Shown: positions 19,467-30,262 of the stretch, piece by piece | How the letters are laid out: every line of letters begins with the position of its first letter | Position numbering within the stretch: position 1 is the first letter of the stretch | Assembly: GCA_041657665.1 (NCBI GenBank) | Contig: JBBABN010000001.1 | Location: forward strand, 2,355-66,354 | Length of the DNA stretch: 64,000 bases | DNA from: Minisyncoccota bacterium | Lineage (GTDB): Bacteria; Patescibacteriota; Minisyncoccia; Phycocordibacterales; Phycocordibacteraceae | Direction: 5' to 3' | Notes under the pieces: generated by a model | What the model saw: the letters and a program-made list of their open reading frames with translations, nothing else | Database searches by the model: none | What the model was told of the DNA's origin: nothing | Position numbers and translations under genes: made by a program

Positions 19467-19540
19467 GCCCCGATGGTGAAATGGATATCACGGCTGACTT
19501 CGGATCAGCTATTCCGGGTTCGAATCCTGGTCAGGGCACC
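19467..19540 (+). tRNA. tRNA-Arg (anticodon TCG)
   Basis: Manual cloverleaf: acceptor GCCCCGA/TCAGGGC (one mismatch), D stem GTGA/TCAC, anticodon stem GCTGA/TCAGC with loop CTTCGGA (TCG), T arm CCGGG-TTCGAAT-CCTGG. Confidence 0.8.
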
Positions 19541-19599
19541 GCTAAGAAAAGTTGGTCACACTAGAAATGAATATGCACGGCATGCTACTATGCCGAGAG

Positions 19600-19670
19600 G
19601 CGGGCATGGTTTAGTGGTAGAACACGTCCTTGCCAAGGACGAGACGGGAGTCCGATTCTCCCTGCCCGCA
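19600..19670 (+). tRNA. tRNA-Gly (anticodon GCC)
   Basis: Acceptor GCGGGCA/TGCCCGC, anticodon stem CGTCC/GGACG with loop TTGCCAA (GCC), T arm GGGAG-TCCGATT-CTCCC. Confidence 0.85.
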
Positions 19671-19855
19671 CTACTTCGCTCTGTTCAGAAACAGAGCTTC
19701 GCAGTGCACAGCACTATAGGAATGTGACTAAAAAGACGACTTTTACTCCTGTGGATAAGTAGGTGCATACTGGGGATAAAGGACAGTTGTCTATAATGGA
19801 TAAACTAGTGCGGTCTTAGAGTATACTGAGGAAATAAGCCATATTTATAAAAGCC

Positions 19856-20272
19856 GTGGACATTTCATCTAAGACCACTAAAGAGATAGGAAATCTGGGG
19901 GAAAGCGTCGCCTGCGAGTATCTCCGGCGACACGGATTCTCTATTCGCGATCGCAATATTGCACGAAAGACAGGAGAACTCGATGTTATCGCAGAGAAGG
20001 AAGATACCCTGCATTTTGTTGAAGTTAAGACTGTGCTGGCTGACGAATTTCCCCACTCCGCTGAAGCTACTCGGGGCAAGCCAGGTGATTATGATGAATA
20101 CGATCCTTCCCTCAACTTACACGAAGCGAAGGTGCGGAAAGTCGCACGGACCGGCGAATGGTATGTCCTAGAGAAAGGATGGGAAGGGGACTGGCAAGTA
20201 GACGGGTGTCTCGTCTGGCTCCGCCGTCGAGACGGTATGGCACGAGTGAGCTACCTGCCACAAATTGTATAA
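19856..20272 (+). CDS. yraN: YraN/UPF0102 family predicted endonuclease
   Basis: GNLGESVACEYLRRHGFSIRDRN...GELDVIA...LHFVEVKT matches the YraN restriction-endonuclease-like core. Confidence 0.7.
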   Translation: MDISSKTTKEIGNLGESVACEYLRRHGFSIRDRNIARKTGELDVIAEKEDTLHFVEVKTVLADEFPHSAEATRGKPGDYDEYDPSLNLHEAKVRKVARTGEWYVLEKGWEGDWQVDGCLVWLRRRDGMARVSYLPQIV

Positions 20273-20292
20273 ATCTGCTAGGATGCGAGAAA

Positions 20293-20363
20293 CGGGCCGG
20301 AGTATGCCGGTAGTACACCTGCTTTGGGAGCAGGCAGACCGAGTTCAATTCTCGGCGGCCCGA
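20293..20363 (+). tRNA. tRNA-Pro (anticodon TGG)
   Basis: Acceptor CGGGCCG/CGGCCCG, anticodon stem CCTGC/GCAGG with loop TTTGGGA (TGG), T arm CCGAG-TTCAATT-CTCGG. Confidence 0.8.
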
Positions 20364-20366
20364 TGA

Positions 20367-21440
20367 TTACGGTAATTGAGTAGTTATAATCGACTCTAGA
20401 GCAGTCATTTTGGGTGCAAAACTAGCGATAGAAGAAATAGGCGATTGAACAAGAAGAATATCCAAAGGTTCTTTTGTTTCACTTGCATATTCAGAACGCA
20501 CGTAGGAGGCCGTTATGGCGCTCAAGGAGCGTGTATTAATCGCACCAGAGATTGTGCTCGTCGTAATAGTGCCGACGAGTTTTCCTTCTGCGTCTACAAT
20601 GCCTCCGCCAGAAGAACCCTCTTGTGCGATAGCCGAACCGCCAAAAGAGAGTACGTCGATCGTATTCTCTGCAAAAGTAAAAACATCTTTCACTGAGCCG
20701 AATACCATAGAAGGGAAGAGTGAGGACACTATCTGGCTTGGATCAAGAAACTGTGCCCCATACGAGGCAATAGCTACTGGCGTATCAGGAAGCGGCGGCT
20801 GTGTAGCGAGTGGGATATAAGGGAAAGAGAGGGGGAGAGGACTTGTCGTCGCGCTCGAAGAGACCGCGAGGAGCGCAAAATCGTATTCACCAGTTCCGTT
20901 TGGCGATGTCTCACTGAGGACTTTTGGATTCGCCTGAAGCCATTTCTCTGAGATATATATGAGTTTTGCGTTATAGCGGTCTGTTGCCGGAACTCCAGAG
21001 CGAATAGTGCAGGAGATACCCTTATCAGCGAGAAGAAAATATTGCCCGACATGCGCATTGGTGAGGATAATGCCTTTCGCATCGATAAGAACACCTGTTG
21101 CCGAGATTGAATGGAGAGGACTTCCTTGTGGGGCGTAACAAATAATATTTACCAGAGCATCGACAAGCGTCGAAGCTGCGACACGGAGCGCTGTATTTTT
21201 TTCAACTGAAGAGGGTGATAGTGCAGGATTACTAGCTGATGTTGGAATAGCAGAAGAAACAACTTTTGGAGCAGCGCTTTCATCAGAAGGAATTGCTGAT
21301 ACTGGTTTTGTAGAAAAATCGGCAGGAATGGTAGCAGTTATAGGAGAATTAACCGTAGGAGTACGCCCAAGAAAAGAAGCAATAAAAACTCCACACACAA
21401 ACCCAAGAGAGATGCCAATAAATGAAACGAATCGTCGCAT
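20367..21440 (-). CDS. Secreted trypsin-like serine protease (S1 family, HtrA-like without an obvious PDZ)
   Basis: Signal/TM at the N-terminus. Catalytic-triad context ILTNAHV (His) and ...GSSGGGIVDAEGKLVGTIT (the Ser motif, cf. GDSGGP). Confidence 0.7.
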   Translation of the reverse strand: MRRFVSFIGISLGFVCGVFIASFLGRTPTVNSPITATIPADFSTKPVSAIPSDESAAPKVVSSAIPTSASNPALSPSSVEKNTALRVAASTLVDALVNIICYAPQGSPLHSISATGVLIDAKGIILTNAHVGQYFLLADKGISCTIRSGVPATDRYNAKLIYISEKWLQANPKVLSETSPNGTGEYDFALLAVSSSATTSPLPLSFPYIPLATQPPLPDTPVAIASYGAQFLDPSQIVSSLFPSMVFGSVKDVFTFAENTIDVLSFGGSAIAQEGSSGGGIVDAEGKLVGTITTSTISGAINTRSLSAITASYVRSEYASETKEPLDILLVQSPISSIASFAPKMTALESIITTQLP

Positions 21441-21482
21441 GTTTATACGCTAGCGCAAAAATGGTATTCTCACCACAGGAAC

Positions 21483-21553
21483 GCGGGATTAGTTTAATGG
21501 TAGAACTACAGATTTCCAATCTGTTAGTGGGAGTTCGATTCTCCCATCCCGCA
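21483..21553 (+). tRNA. tRNA-Gly (anticodon TCC)
   Basis: Acceptor GCGGGAT/ATCCCGC, anticodon stem ACAGA/TCTGT with loop TTTCCAA (TCC), T arm GGGAG-TTCGATT-CTCCC. Confidence 0.85.
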
Positions 21554-21556
21554 CAC

Positions 21557-25426: not shown

Positions 25427-26026
25427 TTACGCGTACACTTTATCAACCAACCCGTACTTTTTCGCTTCTTCAGCCGTCATAAAGAAGTCGCGCTCGACAT
25501 CCTTCTCAATCTTCGCGAGTGGCTGGCCCGTATTCTTCGAGAGAATCTTATTCAACACCGCACGAAGCTTCAGAATCTGCTTCGCGGTAATCTCGATATC
25601 GGTCGCTTGACCCTCAGCACCGCCACTTGGCTGATGGATCATTATCTCAGCATTCGGGAGCGCGAAGCGTTTACCTTTTTCTCCTGCCGAGAGGAGAATC
25701 GCCGCGCCTGAAGCTGCCATACCAACGCACACCGTCGAAACATTCGGTTTTACATGATTCATCGTGTCTACCATCGCAAGTGTCGAAGTAACCGAGCCAC
25801 CTGGAGAGTTGATGTAGAGTGAAATATCTTTTTTAGGGTCTTCAGCTTCGAGGAAGAGAAGCTGGGCGATCACGAGATTTGCCGTATCGTCATCAATATG
25901 TCCGCCAAGAAAAATAACACGCTCCTTCAAGAGGCGCGAGTAGATGTCATAGGCGCGCTCGCCGAATTGGCTCTTCTCGATAACCATCGGGACGAGCATT
26001 GAGGCACGAGGTTGTGAATGTGTCAT
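25427..26026 (-). CDS. clpP: ATP-dependent Clp protease proteolytic subunit
   Basis: [46 protein letters not shown]...MAASGAA...MIHQP is a canonical ClpP sequence including the Ser-His catalytic motifs. Confidence 0.95.
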
Positions 26027-26763: not shown

Positions 26764-28152
26764 TTATTCGTCTTTCGCTGTATCGCGGTCTTCTTCTGCA
26801 TCAGCGACCGTCTCGTCGCTTGCCGGCAGTTCTGTCGATTCTTCTTCGGCAGGAAGTTCGGTAAGCTCTACCACTTCTTCAGTAATGATTTCATCACTTT
26901 CAGTCGGCATAACACCCGCCAATTCAGCAGGATCGGTTTCATCCTCTTTTCTAGTAGGATCCTCATCAACAACCGCGACTGATTCGCCATCAGATCCAGC
27001 GACTTCAGTGCCGCCAGTAGAAATAATATCAATATTCCATCCGGTAAGCTTCGCAGCGAGACGCACATTCTGACCACCGCGACCAATCGCGAGTGATTGT
27101 TCATCTTCAGATACTGTAACAGTCGCGCGATGACCTTCTTCATCAAGCACTACTTCAACCGGTGTCGCAGGGGAGAGCGCCTCTCTCACAAATTCTTTTG
27201 CATCATCATTCCATTCGATAATATCAATACGTTCTCCTCCAAGCTCACTCATCACAGTAGAAACGCGCACACCACGCTGACCGACGAGAGAACCGACCGG
27301 GTCGACATGTGACTCTTTCGAAGCAAGCGCTATCTTAGTACGACTGCCTGGCTCGCGCGCCAGCGCCTTCACCTCTATCGCACCACTCGCAAGCTCGGGT
27401 GCCTCAAGCTCGAAAAGCTTCACGACAAACTTCGGATGCGCACGGGAAAGTCGCAGATATACACCGCGGAATCCCTCGTCTACCGCGTAGAGATACGCGC
27501 GAATACGCTCACCCATACGATACCGCTCTCCTGGAATCTGCTCTTCATAAGGGATAATGCCGGTCGTACGCCCAAGATCGACGAAAATCGCTCCGCGTTC
27601 CATCCGCTGGACGATACCCGACACAATCTGACCTTTTCGCTCACCGAATTCCTCCATCATCGAGGTTTTTTCTGCTTCGCGCACCTTCTGAATAACTACC
27701 TGCTTGGCGGTTTGTGCTGCTATACGACCAAAATCGTCTTGCGGTTCGAGAGGGAAGACGATCTGTTCGCCCACAACAGCGTCACGCTTCATAAGCTTCG
27801 CATTAGCGATAAGGATATGCTTTTCAGAGTCGAAACGTGGCAATTCACCCTCAGCAAGCTGTTCTTCCTCATTATGAAATGAGTGCATGTGGTGACTATG
27901 CTCTTCAGGAATTTCTTCTCCAGGAGCAGGAAAACGAACGGTTGTGTCGTCCACAATCGTTTTAATCTGTTCGAAGGAGATAGTACCAGTATTAAGGTCG
28001 AGTTTGGCGTGTACCACTTGCCCGCGCTTACCGTATTCGCGCTTATATGCGGTCGCCATCGCACTCTCGATAGCCTCAATCATCGTTTCGCGATTAATGC
28101 CCCTGTCTTCGAACTCTCCGAGCACTGCATTGATGGTTTTTAAGTCAATCAT
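26764..28152 (-). CDS. nusA: Transcription termination/antitermination factor NusA
   Basis: N-terminal NusA domain (MIDLKTINAVLGEFEDRGINRETMIEAIE), S1 domain, two KH domains, and an acidic C-terminal tail. Confidence 0.9.
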   Translation of the reverse strand: MIDLKTINAVLGEFEDRGINRETMIEAIESAMATAYKREYGKRGQVVHAKLDLNTGTISFEQIKTIVDDTTVRFPAPGEEIPEEHSHHMHSFHNEEEQLAEGELPRFDSEKHILIANAKLMKRDAVVGEQIVFPLEPQDDFGRIAAQTAKQVVIQKVREAEKTSMMEEFGERKGQIVSGIVQRMERGAIFVDLGRTTGIIPYEEQIPGERYRMGERIRAYLYAVDEGFRGVYLRLSRAHPKFVVKLFELEAPELASGAIEVKALAREPGSRTKIALASKESHVDPVGSLVGQRGVRVSTVMSELGGERIDIIEWNDDAKEFVREALSPATPVEVVLDEEGHRATVTVSEDEQSLAIGRGGQNVRLAAKLTGWNIDIISTGGTEVAGSDGESVAVVDEDPTRKEDETDPAELAGVMPTESDEIITEEVVELTELPAEEESTELPASDETVADAEEDRDTAKDE

Positions 28153-28322
28153 ATGGAATATGTATGTCGCACGTTTTTAATATGTCTAACACCTATTCTA
28201 ACATTTCTAATAAAAATGCCCGCATCGCGGACATTTCAGATGATGTAAAGATACCAGATTCTTTTTTATGCGTCAACACAAAAAGAAAAGAGCCACCTAA
28301 TTGGTGACTCTATGCCCTTACG

Positions 28323-28382
28323 GTCTCGCCTCGACTTATTTTATTCGTCCGAGATCCCCGCTTACGCCTTGGGTTAGGCGGC
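28323..28382 (-). repeat. R element copy 1 (partial, ~60 nt) at the 3' end of small ORF 28395..28673
   Basis: GTCTCGCCTCGACTTATTTTATTCGTCCGAGATCCCCGCTTACGCCTTGGGTTAGGCGG is near-identical to the 5' two-thirds of copy 2 (28730..28815). Confidence 0.8.
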
Positions 28383-28394
28383 TGTGTGAAGATG

Positions 28395-28673
28395 TTAATT
28401 GCTCTTCTTCCTTGAGAGAAAGAGAAAGACAATTAAACCAACCAAGAAGTATACCGCCATGGACAAGTGGAGCGAAAGAGCCTCCGACCATGGCCATACC
28501 ATCCCAAACATCAGGACGGTGCAGTTTGTTCCTTGAATGTGCACCTTCATGTACAACGCCCCCACGAGAAAAATGCAGAAAGAGTAGAGAGCTACGAAAA
28601 TACTGGAGACCAGCACTTTCACGAAGATCTCTAATCCTTTGACAAACTTCTCGGCAGCTTTTTCAGATGTCAT
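28395..28673 (-). CDS. Small hydrophobic membrane protein (92 aa), unknown function. First downstream member of the small-ORF array.
   Basis: ORF with an AAGGAG RBS ~8 nt before its ATG (reverse complement of 28674-28690). Two predicted TM helices. Confidence 0.45.
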   Translation of the reverse strand: MTSEKAAEKFVKGLEIFVKVLVSSIFVALYSFCIFLVGALYMKVHIQGTNCTVLMFGMVWPWSEALSLHLSMAVYFLVGLIVFLFLSRKKSN

Positions 28674-28729
28674 TTCACTTCTCCTTTTTTATTGTGAGAG
28701 AACATTTTTTCTGTTTTCATTTCCCTGAG

Positions 28730-28815
28730 GTCTCGCCTCGGCTTATTTTATTCGTCCGAGATCCCCGCTCACGCCTTGGGTTAGGCGGGTTTCGCTACCC
28801 CGGCTCGAGCGAGAC
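28730..28815 (-). repeat. R element copy 2 (86 nt), a structured repeat overlapping the stop of ORF 28795..29097
   Basis: Terminal 7-bp pairing GTCTCGC/GCGAGAC encloses two hairpins (CTCGG..CCGAG and CCCGC..GCGGG). The ORF C-terminus LEPG* is encoded by the conserved GGCTCGAGC segment. Confidence 0.8.
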
Positions 28816-29097
28816 GACCTTTGATCTGGAAATCAAAAGCCGATCGGCCCCACAGCCTATGCGGCGGCCGTCGATCCACTCCGAGTGAGAGTGCATCACC
28901 CAGAGCACATTTCCATGGCTCTGAATCTCTACCACTCTTGGATCATTTGGATCGAGCTGGAGGGTCTTCACCTCGTCCTCATAGACATCAATGTCCCCTC
29001 TCCAGTACTTCCAAGTGCTCGGCCAGCGAGTCCAATTAATCTTTCTTTCTGTCCCATCCGTAAAACGGATGAACATTGGTCTTCCTGGACAATCCAT
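28795..29097 (-). CDS. Hypothetical 100-aa protein, middle ORF of the array
   Basis: Perfect SD AAGGAG 8 nt upstream of the ATG at 29097. The C-terminus is encoded inside R copy 2. No recognisable domain. Confidence 0.55.
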   Translation of the reverse strand: MDCPGRPMFIRFTDGTERKINWTRWPSTWKYWRGDIDVYEDEVKTLQLDPNDPRVVEIQSHGNVLWVMHSHSEWIDGRRIGCGADRLLISRSKVVSLEPG

Positions 29098-29123
29098 TTT
29101 ATTACTCCTTCAAAAAAGAACAT

Positions 29124-29212
29124 TCTGTTTCGTCCTGTGCGATTTGGCATTTCCAAACTGCCGGACTTGGACTTTTCAGTCCTCATCAGTCCCGACCCAA
29201 TCGGGAGACAGA
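29124..29212 (-). ncRNA. Hammerhead-ribozyme-like element A (type III topology, atypical expanded stem II)
   Basis: Minus-strand sense: CUCUGUC^UCCCGA-UUGGG-UCGGGA CUGAUGA GGACUG...[~45-nt insert]...CACAGGAC GAAAC AGA. Present are the GUC cleavage triplet, a 6-bp stem I hairpin, the CUGAUGA and GAAA core, and a 5-bp stem III (UCUGU/ACAGA). Stem II would need tandem G-A pairs plus a large insertion. Confidence 0.55.
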
Positions 29213-29333
29213 GAGAGGTTTTGTCCGGACCTCTCAAACCGAGCGTGTTCCTTCAAAGAAGGATGTCCCAATCACCTCAGATTGCCTGGGTTATGACGAA
29301 CCCGACAAACCTATGATTGCGTGATTTTCAATA

Positions 29334-29474
29334 TCAAGTCGTCATCTTGATATTCCGGATTATCCCCACGATCGAGGGGACGCCTAAGGGTGTGCGCTTA
29401 CCCAACGGAACAGGCTTATCTATTTCCATCTCTCGAGAGATAGGAACACATAACCCTGTTCCGTTTTTGTCCAT
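29334..29474 (-). CDS. Possible 46-aa ORF (MDKNGTGLCVPISREMEIDKPVPLGKRTPLGVPSIVGIIRNIKMTT) downstream of hammerhead B
   Basis: Internal ATG of track ORF 29334..29519. The upstream 45 nt of that track ORF are the hammerhead core and so unlikely to be coding. Weak RBS. Confidence 0.3.
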   Translation of the reverse strand: MDKNGTGLCVPISREMEIDKPVPLGKRTPLGVPSIVGIIRNIKMTT

Positions 29475-29494
29475 ATTTAAAAGAACAATTCTTT

Positions 29495-29546
29495 GCTGTT
29501 TCGTCCTTTTTGGACTCATCAGGGGAGAGAAATATCTCCCGACAGC
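29495..29546 (-). ncRNA. Type III hammerhead ribozyme (minimal, all core positions canonical)
   Basis: Minus-strand sense: GCUGUC^GGGAGA-UAUUUC-UCUCCC CUGAUGA GUCC-AAAAA-GGAC GAAAC AGC. Stem III GCUGU/ACAGC with A15.1-U16.1 and C17 (GUC, cleavage between + coordinates 29541/29540). Stem I 6 bp, stem II 4 bp (G10.1-C11.1). Invariant C3 U4 G5 A6 U7 G8 A9 and G12 A13 A14 are all present. Confidence 0.85.
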
Positions 29547-29696
29547 AATCCGTATCGTGGATTAGTCGAATCCCGTATTCGTTGGATTAATCGGATGGTA
29601 GTCATTATCGGCGTTGACCTTACCGTGCCAATCATTACTGACTGGCAGGTTTGCAGTTATTTCCATCACCTTACCTGCAAACCGTTTTACCCTGCG

Positions 29697-29780
29697 GTCT
29701 CGCTCCAACTTATGGATTCATTGAAGTCCCCGCTTACGCATGGGTTGAAGGCGGCTTCCGCTAAGCCATGGGCTCGAGCT
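29697..29780 (-). repeat. R element copy 3 (diverged, ~70% identity) overlapping the stop of ORF 29761..30171
   Basis: GGTCTCGCTCC...CCCCGCTTACGCATGGGTT..GGCGG...GGGCTCGAGC aligns with copies 1/2. The ORF C-terminus LEPMA* is encoded in the conserved GGCTCGAGC block. The hairpin-1 stem has a different sequence but preserves pairing (ACTT/AAGT versus CTCGG/CCGAG). Confidence 0.7.
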
Positions 29781-30171
29781 TCTTCGTCTTGAAGACGATC
29801 TTCTCGAGCACCTCGTAGTGGGAGAATTTAAGCAGGTCGCGCCCGCTCTCATCCTTCCCGACCACAATGGCCCGACCGGACTCATCACGCTCAAATTCCG
29901 CGCGAATGAGAACGGCCCCGAGGTTGCACTGCCGGTCCACCAACCTTATTAAGGTCGGGAACGGCGCCTGCGCCTCGACAGCGACGACTTTGCCATCGGT
30001 CTCGGACTCAACCTTCTGGATGAGTTCCTTGACCGAAGTGACAGCGTCGTCGCCGTAGCGGATGTCATCGGTTACGACCTTAAGGTCGCTTCCGAAGACG
30101 CCCTTCAGGAACGCCTCACGGGCGGCGTCGAGCGGATGGCGGGTGATTCTGACAAGGACTTTCATTTGCAC
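29761..30171 (-). CDS. Hypothetical 136-aa protein, first ORF of the array
   Basis: ORF starting ~120 nt downstream of the divergent promoter region 30172..30330. No recognisable motif. The C-terminus lies inside R copy 3. Confidence 0.5.
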   Translation of the reverse strand: MQMKVLVRITRHPLDAAREAFLKGVFGSDLKVVTDDIRYGDDAVTSVKELIQKVESETDGKVVAVEAQAPFPTLIRLVDRQCNLGAVLIRAEFERDESGRAIVVGKDESGRDLLKFSHYEVLEKIVFKTKKLEPMA

Positions 30172-30262
30172 TCCTTCTGCGGCCTTTGTCGCGAATAAAA
30201 GAACATTGATAACTTTTTATCAGTAGTGCTATGATAGCGCATTGGTATCGTTTGTCAAGTTT

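What the first reader, a model, noticed from the sequence alone, without database searches (positions are those of the whole stretch)
29495..29546. Textbook minimal type III hammerhead ribozyme in a 5' leader on the minus strand
Read on the minus strand, the sequence is GCUGUC|GGGAGA-UAUUUC-UCUCCC-CUGAUGA-GUCC-AAAAA-GGAC-GAAAC-AGC. Every invariant hammerhead position is present (C3 U4 G5 A6 U7 G8 A9, G12 A13 A14, A15.1-U16.1, C17 within a GUC triplet). All three helices form: stem I 6 bp closed by a loop, stem II 4 bp with G10.1-C11.1, and stem III GCUGU/ACAGC open, which gives type III topology. It lies ~20 nt upstream of a small ORF and ~150 nt downstream of another. It would therefore cut a polycistronic transcript between the cistrons, at + coordinates 29541/29540. 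Bacterial hammerheads are known mainly from prophage contexts, so one in a conserved chromosomal neighbourhood next to nusA is notable. The ORF track's 'MSPKRTKQQRIVLLNM' N-terminus is simply this ribozyme read as protein.
Basis: seen in the sequence. Interest (0 to 1): 0.85.

Follow-up and report, generated by a model that had tools for sequence, protein, structure and literature searches.

The report
Genuine hammerhead ribozyme between operon genes
The flagged sequence is a real type III hammerhead self-cleaving RNA in a small operon of an uncultured Patescibacteria bacterium; it belongs to a set of such ribozymes that, together with a previously undescribed structured RNA motif, sit at gene boundaries in related operons.

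Summary
Window 29548..29493 (minus strand) matches Rfam Hammerhead_3 above the curated threshold (52.3 vs 48.5 bits, E 1e-8). Its lowest-energy fold is the canonical three-helix hammerhead, and it is conserved in nine related metagenome contigs with a compensatory change in stem III. The "small ORF" downstream is not a gene: relatives have ATA instead of ATG and an in-frame stop. It is a ~280-nt structured RNA that ends in a second, aberrant hammerhead (HH2, 29214..29122). HH2 lies directly upstream of the ORF100 ribosome-binding site. The ribozyme is tied to a 134-aa protein family (ORF136), not to nusA. In other Patescibacteria this family sits beside Csx3-AAA genes, again separated by hammerheads; twelve hammerheads show full stem covariation. 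This is the known pattern of clustered hammerheads cutting polycistronic RNAs, here in a new host group and not in a prophage. The unexpected result is a ~65-nt RNA motif. It has three copies in the window and twelve overall, three covarying helices and no Rfam match. It starts 1-14 nt after stop codons and occupies the same intergenic positions as the hammerheads, so it is a candidate new processing element.

The parts
30231..30258 (-). Promoter-like site (TTGACA-16-TATCAT, 11/12) upstream of ORF136; candidate start of the transcription unit
   Evidence: Consensus scan only
29761..30165 (-). ORF136 (134 aa from the second in-frame ATG): conserved hypothetical protein family of Patescibacteria with a Rossmann-like fold
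   Evidence: 75 homologues, no Pfam/PHROG/PADLOC family. AF2 pLDDT 94. Only weak fold matches to CARF/SAVED/Argonaute-MID
29684..29758 (-). 3' motif copy A, starting a few nt after the ORF136 stop codon
   Evidence: Own covariance model, 77.3 bits. Partly deleted in L001
29549..29683 (-). Pre-HH1 conserved noncoding segment; contains a promoter-like site at 29631-29604
   Evidence: 98.2% identical to L001 apart from a 25-nt indel. Found only in this clade. Promoter-like match
29493..29548 (-). HH1: canonical type III hammerhead ribozyme, predicted cleavage between 29541 and 29540
   Evidence: Rfam 52.3 bits, above GA 48.5. Canonical lowest-energy fold. Conserved in L001 and L119-L127 with a G-C to U-A change in stem III
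29215..29492 (-). Inter-hammerhead structured noncoding RNA, including the long hairpin 29404-29465; previously read as a 46/61-aa ORF
   Evidence: The 334-nt cut-to-cut RNA folds with z -5.5. Inverted repeat I1. 96.4% identity to L001 with one compensatory pair. ORF disrupted in relatives
29122..29214 (-). HH2: hammerhead-like element with intact core and stems I and III, but a 16-nt extra hairpin between A9 and stem II. Predicted cleavage 29207|29206. Directly upstream of the ORF100 RBS
   Evidence: Rfam 24.4 bits, below GA. Fold shows two hairpins in place of stem II. Homologous to canonical hammerheads in L116 and L129
28795..29097 (-). ORF100: orphan ORF with a good Shine-Dalgarno sequence; absent from the syntenic relatives
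   Evidence: Only self-hit among 5.8 billion proteins. Indel relative to L001
28717..28793 (-). 3' motif copy B, starting directly after the ORF100 stop codon
   Evidence: 81.7 bits
28699..28718 (-). GAAAACAGAAAAAATGTTCT: resembles the 3' end and tail of a hammerhead (GAAACAGAATGTTCT); possible ribozyme remnant in the ORF92 leader
   Evidence: Sequence reading
28395..28673 (-). ORF92: small predicted membrane protein restricted to this clade
   Evidence: 79.9% nt identity to L001
28310..28386 (-). 3' motif copy C, 14 nt after the ORF92 stop codon, followed by a terminator
   Evidence: 76 bits; 94.8% identity to L001
28289..28311 (-). Intrinsic-terminator-like hairpin plus U tract; the only such site on this strand between ORF136 and nusA
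   Evidence: conserved in L001

Best explanation
HH1 is a functional type III hammerhead ribozyme encoded on the minus strand inside a ~1.95-kb transcription unit. The unit runs ORF136, motif A, HH1, structured RNA, HH2, ORF100, motif B, ORF92, motif C, terminator, in a Paceibacteria (Patescibacteria/CPR) genome. When transcribed it cleaves itself after C17 (29541|29540). This separates the ORF136 message, which is left with a 2',3'-cyclic phosphate end, from the downstream RNA, which is left with a 5'-hydroxyl. It is one of several processing modules at gene boundaries in operons built around the ORF136 family; in other lineages these operons are ORF136 plus Csx3-AAA. The likely result is that a polycistronic RNA is cut into gene-sized pieces with their own stabilities. 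Shown here: ribozyme identity, conservation, stem covariation, intergenic same-strand placement, recurrence next to ORF136/Csx3-AAA. Inferred: that it cleaves in vivo, that the unit is one transcript, and what cleavage does to expression.
For: Rfam hit above gathering score, E 1e-8. Canonical lowest-energy fold, z -3.5. HH1 is present in all close relatives from independent metagenomes: L001 and L119-L126 at 54 bits, L127 at 49.9 bits. Stem III changes G-C to U-A. Twelve hammerheads from ORF136-linked loci show canonical pairs at all 6 stem I positions with 2-5 pair types each, invariant G10.1-C11.1, A15.1-U16.1 and C17, and covarying stems II and III. All of them are intergenic, on the gene strand, and 30-60 nt after a stop codon and/or just before an RBS. 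The noncoding block is 94-98% identical between the window and L001, against 80-91% for flanking coding sequence. No terminator-like site lies between ORF136 and 28311 on this strand. Perreault et al. 2011 (PMC3088659) showed that clustered bacterial hammerheads flanking single genes cleave ~2-kb polycistronic RNAs in vitro.
Against: There are no expression or cleavage data of any kind. Promoter and terminator are consensus matches only, and a second promoter-like site (29631-29604) lies between motif A and HH1, so HH1 might instead trim the 5' end of its own transcript. HH1 with its flanks exists only in this clade and looks like a ~470-nt insertion relative to L116/L129. It is therefore not an ancient fixture of the operon. 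HH1 is not adjacent to a coding sequence. About half of the sampled ORF136 loci have neither a hammerhead nor the motif, so processing is not essential to the gene family.
Confidence: 0.75

Rival explanations
1. HH1 and HH2 act together to excise the 334-nt structured RNA (29540..29207). The excised RNA carries 5'-OH and 2',3'-cyclic phosphate ends, is then ligated into a circle, and is the real product. This would be a retrozyme- or viroid-like small circular RNA encoded in a bacterial chromosome.
For: Two same-strand hammerheads lie 334 nt apart. The excised RNA folds far better than shuffles, z -5.5, and is not coding. Both ribozymes share the CUGUC/GAAACAG stem III core, so a circle would rebuild a hammerhead. 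In L127 the inter-hammerhead segment is missing, with one deletion boundary within 1 nt of the HH2 cleavage site. This hints at an RNA-level event.
Against: HH2 has non-canonical 10.2/10.3 pairs and an extra hairpin next to the catalytic core, and scores 24 bits against GA 48.5. Its activity is therefore doubtful. The element is single-copy in the window. No reverse transcriptase or RNA ligase gene is seen nearby. It has no relatives outside one clade and no match in phages or plasmids. Perreault et al. looked for circular or spliced products from clustered bacterial hammerheads and found none.
Confidence: 0.08
2. HH1 is a conditional rather than constitutive ribozyme. The conserved tail after each hammerhead (AGAAUUGUUCUUUU) pairs with the loop and 3' strand of stem II (AAAAAGGAC). 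This gives an alternative fold that switches the ribozyme off, or exposes or hides the downstream leader, so that cleavage depends on transcription or translation kinetics.
For: In the lowest-energy fold of the 334-nt RNA, stem II of HH1 is replaced by exactly this pairing. A GUUCU-type tail follows HH1, HH2 and both L116 hammerheads. In L116b the tail (GUUC) matches its own stem II 5' strand (GUUC).
Against: The tail is absent or different in L129, L009 and L139. A similar GUUCUUUGAAAGG element occurs in L137/L143 leaders that have no hammerhead, so it may have an unrelated role such as a leader or RBS element. The pairing rests on energy predictions only.
Confidence: 0.1
3. HH1 is a passenger or relic: part of a recently inserted ~470-nt noncoding element, with no role for the host operon and possibly no longer cleaving.
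For: HH1, the pre-HH1 segment and the inter-hammerhead RNA occur only in the window and the Kaiserbacteria clade. The orthologous position in L116/L129 has just one hammerhead, the HH2 type. The region is rich in indels.
Against: All core positions are intact, and stem III is maintained through a compensatory change between species. L127 appears to be an intermediate. The block is more conserved than the neighbouring genes. L127 lost the downstream RNA but kept HH1 intact.
Confidence: 0.06
4. The region is protein-coding (the 61-aa ORF at 29334-29519 or an antisense ORF) and the hammerhead resemblance is accidental.
For: ORFs of 61 aa (minus strand) and 82/99 aa (plus strand) overlap the site.
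Against: In L001 the minus-strand frame has ATA for ATG and an in-frame TGA, and the frames are joined differently. The plus-strand ORFs change frame across the hammerhead indels. There are no Pfam hits. The Rfam E-value is 1e-8 and the stems covary.
Confidence: 0.01

Closest known systems
Type III hammerhead ribozymes (Rfam RF00008)
   Same: Identical catalytic core (CUGAUGA, GAAA, A15.1-U16.1, GUC triplet). Stems I and II are capped and stem III is open. The score is above the curated threshold.
   Different: Nothing structural for HH1. The host group (Patescibacteria/CPR) is not mentioned together with hammerheads in any paper of the searched library.
Clustered hammerheads flanking single genes in bacterial (mostly prophage) polycistronic transcripts, Perreault et al. 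2011, PMC3088659
   Same: Several same-strand hammerheads lie close together at gene boundaries, and the cargo genes vary between loci. The proposed role is processing of long RNAs into gene-length pieces.
   Different: No prophage signature here: no integrase nearby, no PHROG hit for the cargo proteins, no phage or plasmid DNA match, and housekeeping genes on both sides. The recurrent partners are the ORF136 family and Csx3-AAA. A second, non-hammerhead RNA motif shares the same slots.
Retrozymes / viroid-like hammerhead circular RNAs
   Same: Two same-sense hammerheads bracket a few-hundred-nt, highly structured, noncoding RNA.
   Different: The element is single-copy, and there is no repeat structure or reverse transcriptase. 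The second ribozyme has an interrupted core. No circular RNA evidence is available.
Pistol ribozyme (closest architecture to the 3' motif)
   Same: A small (~60-75 nt) three-helix RNA in which the loop of the first hairpin could form a pseudoknot, many nucleotides are invariant, and it is found next to hammerheads.
   Different: The candidate pseudoknot 3' strand lies after the closing helix, not in the P2/P3 junction. The conserved sequences differ. The Rfam Pistol, Hatchet, Twister and Twister-sister models give no hit even at E = 10. Cleavage has not been tested.

Membership tests
Hammerhead ribozyme type III (HH1, 29548..29493) | Conserved core: C3 U4 G5 A6 N7 G8 A9, G12 A13 A14, A15.1-U16.1, N17 not G | tested here: met
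   Read directly; aligned to the model without mismatches
Hammerhead ribozyme type III (HH1, 29548..29493) | Three helices around the core, I and II closed by loops, III open | tested here: met
   CM alignment. The lowest-energy fold has stem III 7 bp, stem I 6 bp, stem II 4 bp
Hammerhead ribozyme type III (HH1, 29548..29493) | Covariance-model score at or above the Rfam gathering threshold | tested here: met
   52.3 bits vs 48.5
Hammerhead ribozyme type III (HH1, 29548..29493) | Helices maintained by compensatory change in relatives | tested here: met
   Stem III G-C to U-A between the window and L001. Covariation table for 12 hammerheads
Hammerhead ribozyme type III (HH1, 29548..29493) | Mg2+-dependent site-specific self-cleavage | not testable with these tools
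   Needs in vitro transcription or RNA-end mapping
Hammerhead ribozyme type III (HH1, 29548..29493) | Loop I / loop II tertiary contact for fast cleavage at physiological Mg2+ | not tested
   Loops UAUUUC and AAAAA are present; no method here evaluates the contact
Hammerhead ribozyme type III (HH2, 29214..29122) | Continuous stem II stacked on G10.1-C11.1 next to A9 and G12 | tested here: not met
   Positions 10.2/11.2 and 10.3/11.3 are G-A and A-G. The fold gives two adjacent hairpins, that is, a 16-nt insertion compared with the L116 orthologue
Hammerhead ribozyme type III (HH2, 29214..29122) | Score at or above the Rfam gathering threshold | tested here: not met
   24.4 bits vs 48.5. Core nucleotides and stems I and III are intact
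Clustered gene-flanking hammerheads (Perreault 2011) | Two or more same-strand hammerheads flanking single genes or short gene blocks | tested here: met
   Window (HH1, HH2), L116 (two), plus single sites in L009, L129, L130, L135, L137 and L139
Clustered gene-flanking hammerheads (Perreault 2011) | Prophage / integrase context (typical rather than obligatory) | tested here: not met
   No PHROG hits, no phage match, housekeeping neighbours syntenic with L001
Retrozyme / viroid-like circular RNA | Two active same-sense hammerheads bracketing a structured noncoding RNA | tested here: inconclusive
   The bracket and the structure are present, but the HH2 core is interrupted
Retrozyme / viroid-like circular RNA | Multiple genomic copies or tandem repeats; circular RNA detected | tested here: not met
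   Single copy in the window and in each relative. Circularity is not testable here
Known small self-cleaving ribozymes or riboswitches (for the 3' motif) | Match to any Rfam 15 covariance model | tested here: not met
   No relevant hit at E up to 5 over 2.6 kb, or at E up to 10 on a single copy
Intrinsic terminator (for the 3' motif) | GC-rich hairpin directly followed by a U tract | tested here: not met
   The motif itself has no U tract. Separate terminators follow copy C and the L021 copy, while copies A, B, L116, L137 and L143 are followed by further operon sequence

The most novel reading that the evidence does not exclude
The ~65-nt 3' motif is a new class of self-cleaving (or otherwise catalytic or processing) RNA. 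Its form is a P1 hairpin with an AACCC loop, then RAG-GYGG-GGA, then the P2 hairpin, then GCGAGA-CCRC-A-GGG. It would do the same job as the hammerheads in these operons. This would explain why it occupies the same post-ORF136 and post-Csx3-AAA slots interchangeably with hammerheads, why it starts 1-14 nt after stop codons, and why about 30 of its nucleotides are invariant across lineages whose helices have diverged.
Probability: 0.15. Interest if true: 0.85.

Novelty: new member of a known kind. Interest (0 to 1): 0.45.

Why it matters
The hammerhead itself adds a host group (CPR/Patescibacteria) and a non-prophage, chromosomal operon context to a well-known ribozyme class. That is useful but not surprising. 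More valuable is the system around it. A small protein family (ORF136, often paired with Csx3-AAA) has operons that are repeatedly punctuated by hammerheads and by an undescribed, strongly covarying RNA motif. Earlier discoveries of pistol, hatchet and twister-sister came from exactly this kind of ribozyme neighbourhood. The motif is therefore a concrete candidate that can be tested cheaply. The natural HH2 variant, with a hairpin inserted beside the catalytic core, is a ready-made test of how much the hammerhead core tolerates. These organisms have minimal genomes, so RNA-encoded processing at gene boundaries may stand in for missing protein RNases.

Tried and rejected
1. Coding explanation for the site. 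The ORFs on both strands are not conserved in frame or start codon in relatives.
2. Prophage, plasmid or viral origin. There are no PHROG hits and no blastn match of 29100-29760 to phages or plasmids. The motif is absent from IMG/VR under two patterns, and the four relaxed-pattern hits score 11.5 bits and are chance.
3. The 3' motif as a known RNA family. No Rfam match. Its resemblance to type I-E CRISPR repeats is superficial: the CCGC/GCGG pairing is not conserved in L021, and most metagenome pattern hits were true CRISPR arrays scoring under 19 bits with the model.
4. A defence-system label for the cargo. PADLOC recognises only the Csx3-AAA neighbour, not ORF136, ORF100 or ORF92.
6. Extending the data through ORF100 and ORF92 homologues. 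Both are orphan or clade-restricted.
7. My first two hammerhead descriptor scans were faulty, because the stem counter ran past the loop midpoint. They missed L009 and HH2. The corrected version is.
8. The AFDB fold library was unavailable.

Full report
OBSERVATION. A cmscan of the whole window against Rfam 15 reports Hammerhead_3 (RF00008) at these coordinates. The score is 52.3 bits (gathering 48.5) and E is 1.1e-08, with a full-length alignment and no non-canonical pair. Folded alone, the 60-nt stretch adopts the three-helix hammerhead as its lowest-energy and centroid structure: -21.3 kcal/mol, z -3.5, 0 of 200 shuffles as stable. The scissile bond after C17 falls between 29541 and 29540. 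The simple string CTGATGA..GAAA is not enriched in the window (4 matches vs 1.9 expected). The evidence therefore comes from the structure-aware model and from comparative data, not from the motif string.

CONTEXT. On the minus strand the neighbours are clpP (25427-26026), a pyrophosphatase gene and nusA (26764-28152). On the plus strand they are a trmB-like regulator, pilB and pilC. Between nusA and the trmB-like gene lies a ~2-kb block with three small genes, ORF136, ORF100 and ORF92, and unusually long noncoding stretches. A strong promoter-like site sits upstream of ORF136 (30258-30231). The only terminator-like site on this strand is at 28311-28289, which is compatible with one transcription unit. 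The exact ORF136 protein is annotated in a 'Candidatus Paceibacterota bacterium' MAG, and its 75 homologues are all from Patescibacteria-type MAGs or metagenomes.

A SECOND HAMMERHEAD AND A NON-GENE. A permissive Rfam scan finds a second Hammerhead_3 candidate on the same strand at 29214..29122 (24.4 bits, below threshold). It has the full CUGAUGA/GAAA core, a GUC triplet, a 7-bp stem I and a 5-bp stem III. In place of stem II the fold shows two adjacent hairpins. Compared with its canonical homologue in L116, it carries a 16-nt insertion (GGACUGAAAAGUCCAA) between A9 and stem II. In the syntenic Kaiserbacteria relative L001 its ATG is ATA and the frame has a TGA, while the 31-nt-arm inverted repeat at 29404-29465 keeps pairing through a U-A to C-G double change. 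The 334 nt between the two predicted cut sites fold with z -5.5.

CONSERVATION. L001 (MFMU01000017, Candidatus Kaiserbacteria RIFOXYD1_FULL_47_14) is syntenic from pilB to clpP and carries HH1 at 54 bits. The same is true of eight further contigs from independent metagenomes. Between the window and L001, stem III changes from UUGCUGU/ACAGCAA to UUUCUGU/ACAGAAA. L127 is a mismatched intermediate at 49.9 bits. Nucleotide identity between the window and L001 is 98.2% (pre-HH1 segment), 94.4% (HH1), 96.4% (inter-hammerhead RNA) and 96.7% (HH2). The coding sequences give 89.6% (ORF136), 79.9% (ORF92), 83.8% (nusA) and 91.1% (trmB-like). The noncoding block is thus more constrained than the genes around it.

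THE LOCUS IS MODULAR. Relative to the window, L001 lacks ORF100 plus motif B, has a 45-nt deletion in motif A, and has a 25-nt deletion before HH1. L127 lacks the inter-hammerhead RNA. nhmmer shows that HH1, the pre-HH1 segment and the inter-hammerhead RNA exist only in this clade. By contrast, HH2 with its 5' hairpin (GAGAGG..CCUCUCUCUGUC) is homologous to the single hammerhead after ORF136 in L116 and L129. HH2 therefore marks the older site, and HH1 arrived with a ~470-nt insertion.

A FAMILY OF HAMMERHEADS TIED TO ORF136 / CSX3-AAA. ORF136 homologues sit in many different neighbourhoods. Often the next gene is a 314-aa Csx3-AAA protein (Pfam Cas_csx3; PADLOC Csx3-AAA, E 1.8e-41). Hammerheads recur around them:
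- L009, ~290 nt upstream of ORF136 (45.7 bits).
- L116, ORF136-motif-HH-Csx3AAA-HH (36 and 43 bits).
- L129, ORF136-HH-Csx3AAA (36.9 bits).
- L135, 37 nt after the ORF136 stop (37.8 bits).
- L139 (37.3 bits).
- L130 and L137, after Csx3-AAA. Here the core is CUGACGA, and the sites were found by my structural descriptor only.
Across the 12 sequences, every stem I position is a standard pair with 2-5 different pair types. G10.1-C11.1, A15.1-U16.1 and C17 are invariant, and stems II and III covary. The only non-canonical stem II pairs are those of the window's HH2. Outside ORF136-linked loci, only one weak-stemmed match (one sequence, in L099 and L110), which looks like chance, was found in ~0.88 Mb of fetched DNA. 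About half of the sampled ORF136 lineages have neither element.

AN UNDESCRIBED 3' MOTIF. Directly after the stop codons of ORF136, ORF100 and ORF92 the window has three copies of a ~65-75-nt sequence (29758..29684, 28793..28717, 28386..28310). A metagenome pattern scan returned mostly chance hits, chiefly type I-E CRISPR arrays. It also returned true copies in L002/L048, the L021 group and L116. A covariance model separates them cleanly: 76-93 bits against under 19 bits. Sampling more ORF136 loci added L137 and two copies in L143, including a short form with a GAAA-capped P2. In the 12-copy alignment, P1 has 3 of 4 and P2 has 5 of 6 pairs with changes on both sides. P3 has one compensatory pair (C-G x8, U-A x3). 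Overall 92% of cells are paired, against at most 46% for slid controls, and 0 of 500 shuffles reach the observed covariation score. RNAalifold recovers the same three helices. This alignment was fitted to my model, which favours the structure. A pseudoknot between the P1 loop (AACCC) and the 3' GGGUU is possible, but it rests on invariant CCC/GGG. About 30 nucleotides are invariant (AACCC, RAGYGGGGA, GCGAGACC, AGGG). No Rfam family matches, even at E = 10. The motif begins 1-14 nt after a stop codon in 11 of 12 copies. It occupies the same slots as hammerheads:
- After ORF136: motif (L137, L143), hammerhead (L129, L135), or both (L116, window).
- After Csx3-AAA: motif (L002, L143) or hammerhead (L116, L130, L137).

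MECHANISM. The best-supported reading is the one Perreault et al. proposed for clustered bacterial hammerheads, namely processing of a polycistronic RNA into gene-length pieces. They showed cleavage in vitro for three tandem arrangements (PMC3088659). HH1 would separate the ORF136 message from the downstream RNA. HH2, if active, would free the ORF100/ORF92 message with a short 5'-OH leader. It is an inference from general knowledge of bacterial RNA decay, not shown here, that 5'-OH and 2',3'-cyclic-phosphate ends alter stability. Three alternatives are ranked lower for the reasons given under rival explanations. These are excision and circularisation of the 334-nt RNA, kinetic control through the conserved GUUCUUUU tail that can pair with stem II, and a functionless passenger.

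COMPARISON AND NOVELTY. HH1 meets every testable defining feature of type III hammerheads, so it is a new member of a known kind. The arrangement matches the known gene-flanking cluster pattern but lacks prophage signatures. The library holds no paper that links hammerheads with Patescibacteria/CPR, or self-cleaving ribozymes with Csx3. HH2 fails two membership criteria and should be called hammerhead-like. The 3' motif belongs to no described family. Its closest architectural analogue is pistol, whose P1 loop forms a pseudoknot (PMC6154101), but the topology and sequence differ.

VERDICT. The hammerhead is genuine but ordinary as a ribozyme. The interest lies in the ribozyme-rich operon family and in the new motif found beside it.

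Noticed in passing
window 29758..29684, 28793..28717, 28386..28310 (minus strand); also L002 5530-5604, L021 6898-6971, L024 8520-8594, L026 864-938, L116 1728-1802, L137 3405-3465, L143 3405-3465 and 4578-4652: An undescribed ~65-75-nt structured RNA motif with three covarying helices, about 30 invariant nucleotides and a possible pseudoknot. It starts 1-14 nt after stop codons and sits in the same positions as hammerheads. It has no Rfam match.
   Followed up: yes
L127 3390-3420 compared with L001 4603-4890: One relative lacks the ~285-nt inter-hammerhead RNA. The right-hand deletion boundary falls within 1 nt of the predicted HH2 cleavage site (..UUUUAAAU|CUCGAUUGGG..). This could be coincidence or the trace of an RNA-level cut-and-join event.
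   Followed up: partly
window 29491..29470 and 29121..29100 (minus strand); L116 1915-1930; L130 2330-2345 and 3490-3505; L137 3550-3565; L143 3550-3565 and 4735-4750: A short element, (A)UGUUCUUU(U)GA(A)AGG, recurs in the leaders before ribosome-binding sites in these operons, with or without a hammerhead in front. After HH1 it can pair with stem II. Its role is unexplained.
   Followed up: partly
window 29761-30165 (minus strand) and homologues P0001-P0073: ORF136 is a conserved 130-140-aa Patescibacteria protein with a confident Rossmann-like model (pLDDT 94). It matches CARF, SAVED and Argonaute-MID domains only weakly. It often sits next to Csx3-AAA and, in L130, next to a bpMoxR AAA gene. 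It may be a nucleotide- or oligonucleotide-sensing partner in a conflict system.
   Followed up: partly
window 29667..29562 (minus strand): The pre-HH1 segment can be read as a short peptide (MEITANLPVSNDWHGKVNADNDYHPINP..), and this reading frame is also open in L001. The single substitution in it is synonymous, but the C-terminus differs because of a 25-nt indel and the SD-ATG spacing is poor. There is too little variation to decide.
   Followed up: no
L137 3466-3625; L143 3466-3625 and 4653-4815: In these loci the whole intergenic region after each gene is a repeated module: the motif, a GGGGAA..UUCCCC hairpin, a second hairpin (CUCGAUUUUCAA..UUGAARAUCGUGAG), and then a long hairpin around the RBS. 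This suggests elaborate RNA-level organisation of ORF136/Csx3-AAA operons.
   Followed up: no
window 28699..29130 (minus strand) compared with L001 4960-5020 and L127: ORF100 and motif B together behave as a ~415-nt cassette. It is present in the window and absent in the relatives. The motif lies at its 3' edge, and ORF100 has no homologue anywhere.
   Followed up: partly
window 19467-21554 (plus strand): A cluster of four tRNA genes (Arg-TCG, Gly-GCC, Pro-TGG, Gly-TCC), found by both Rfam and ARAGORN. It is ordinary.
   Followed up: no
L021 5878-8124: A ~2.2-kb stretch between a glutamine amidotransferase-like gene and a nucleotidyltransferase-like gene has no long ORF. It holds only small ORFs, one of which (70 aa, membrane-like) is followed by the motif and a terminator.
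   Followed up: no
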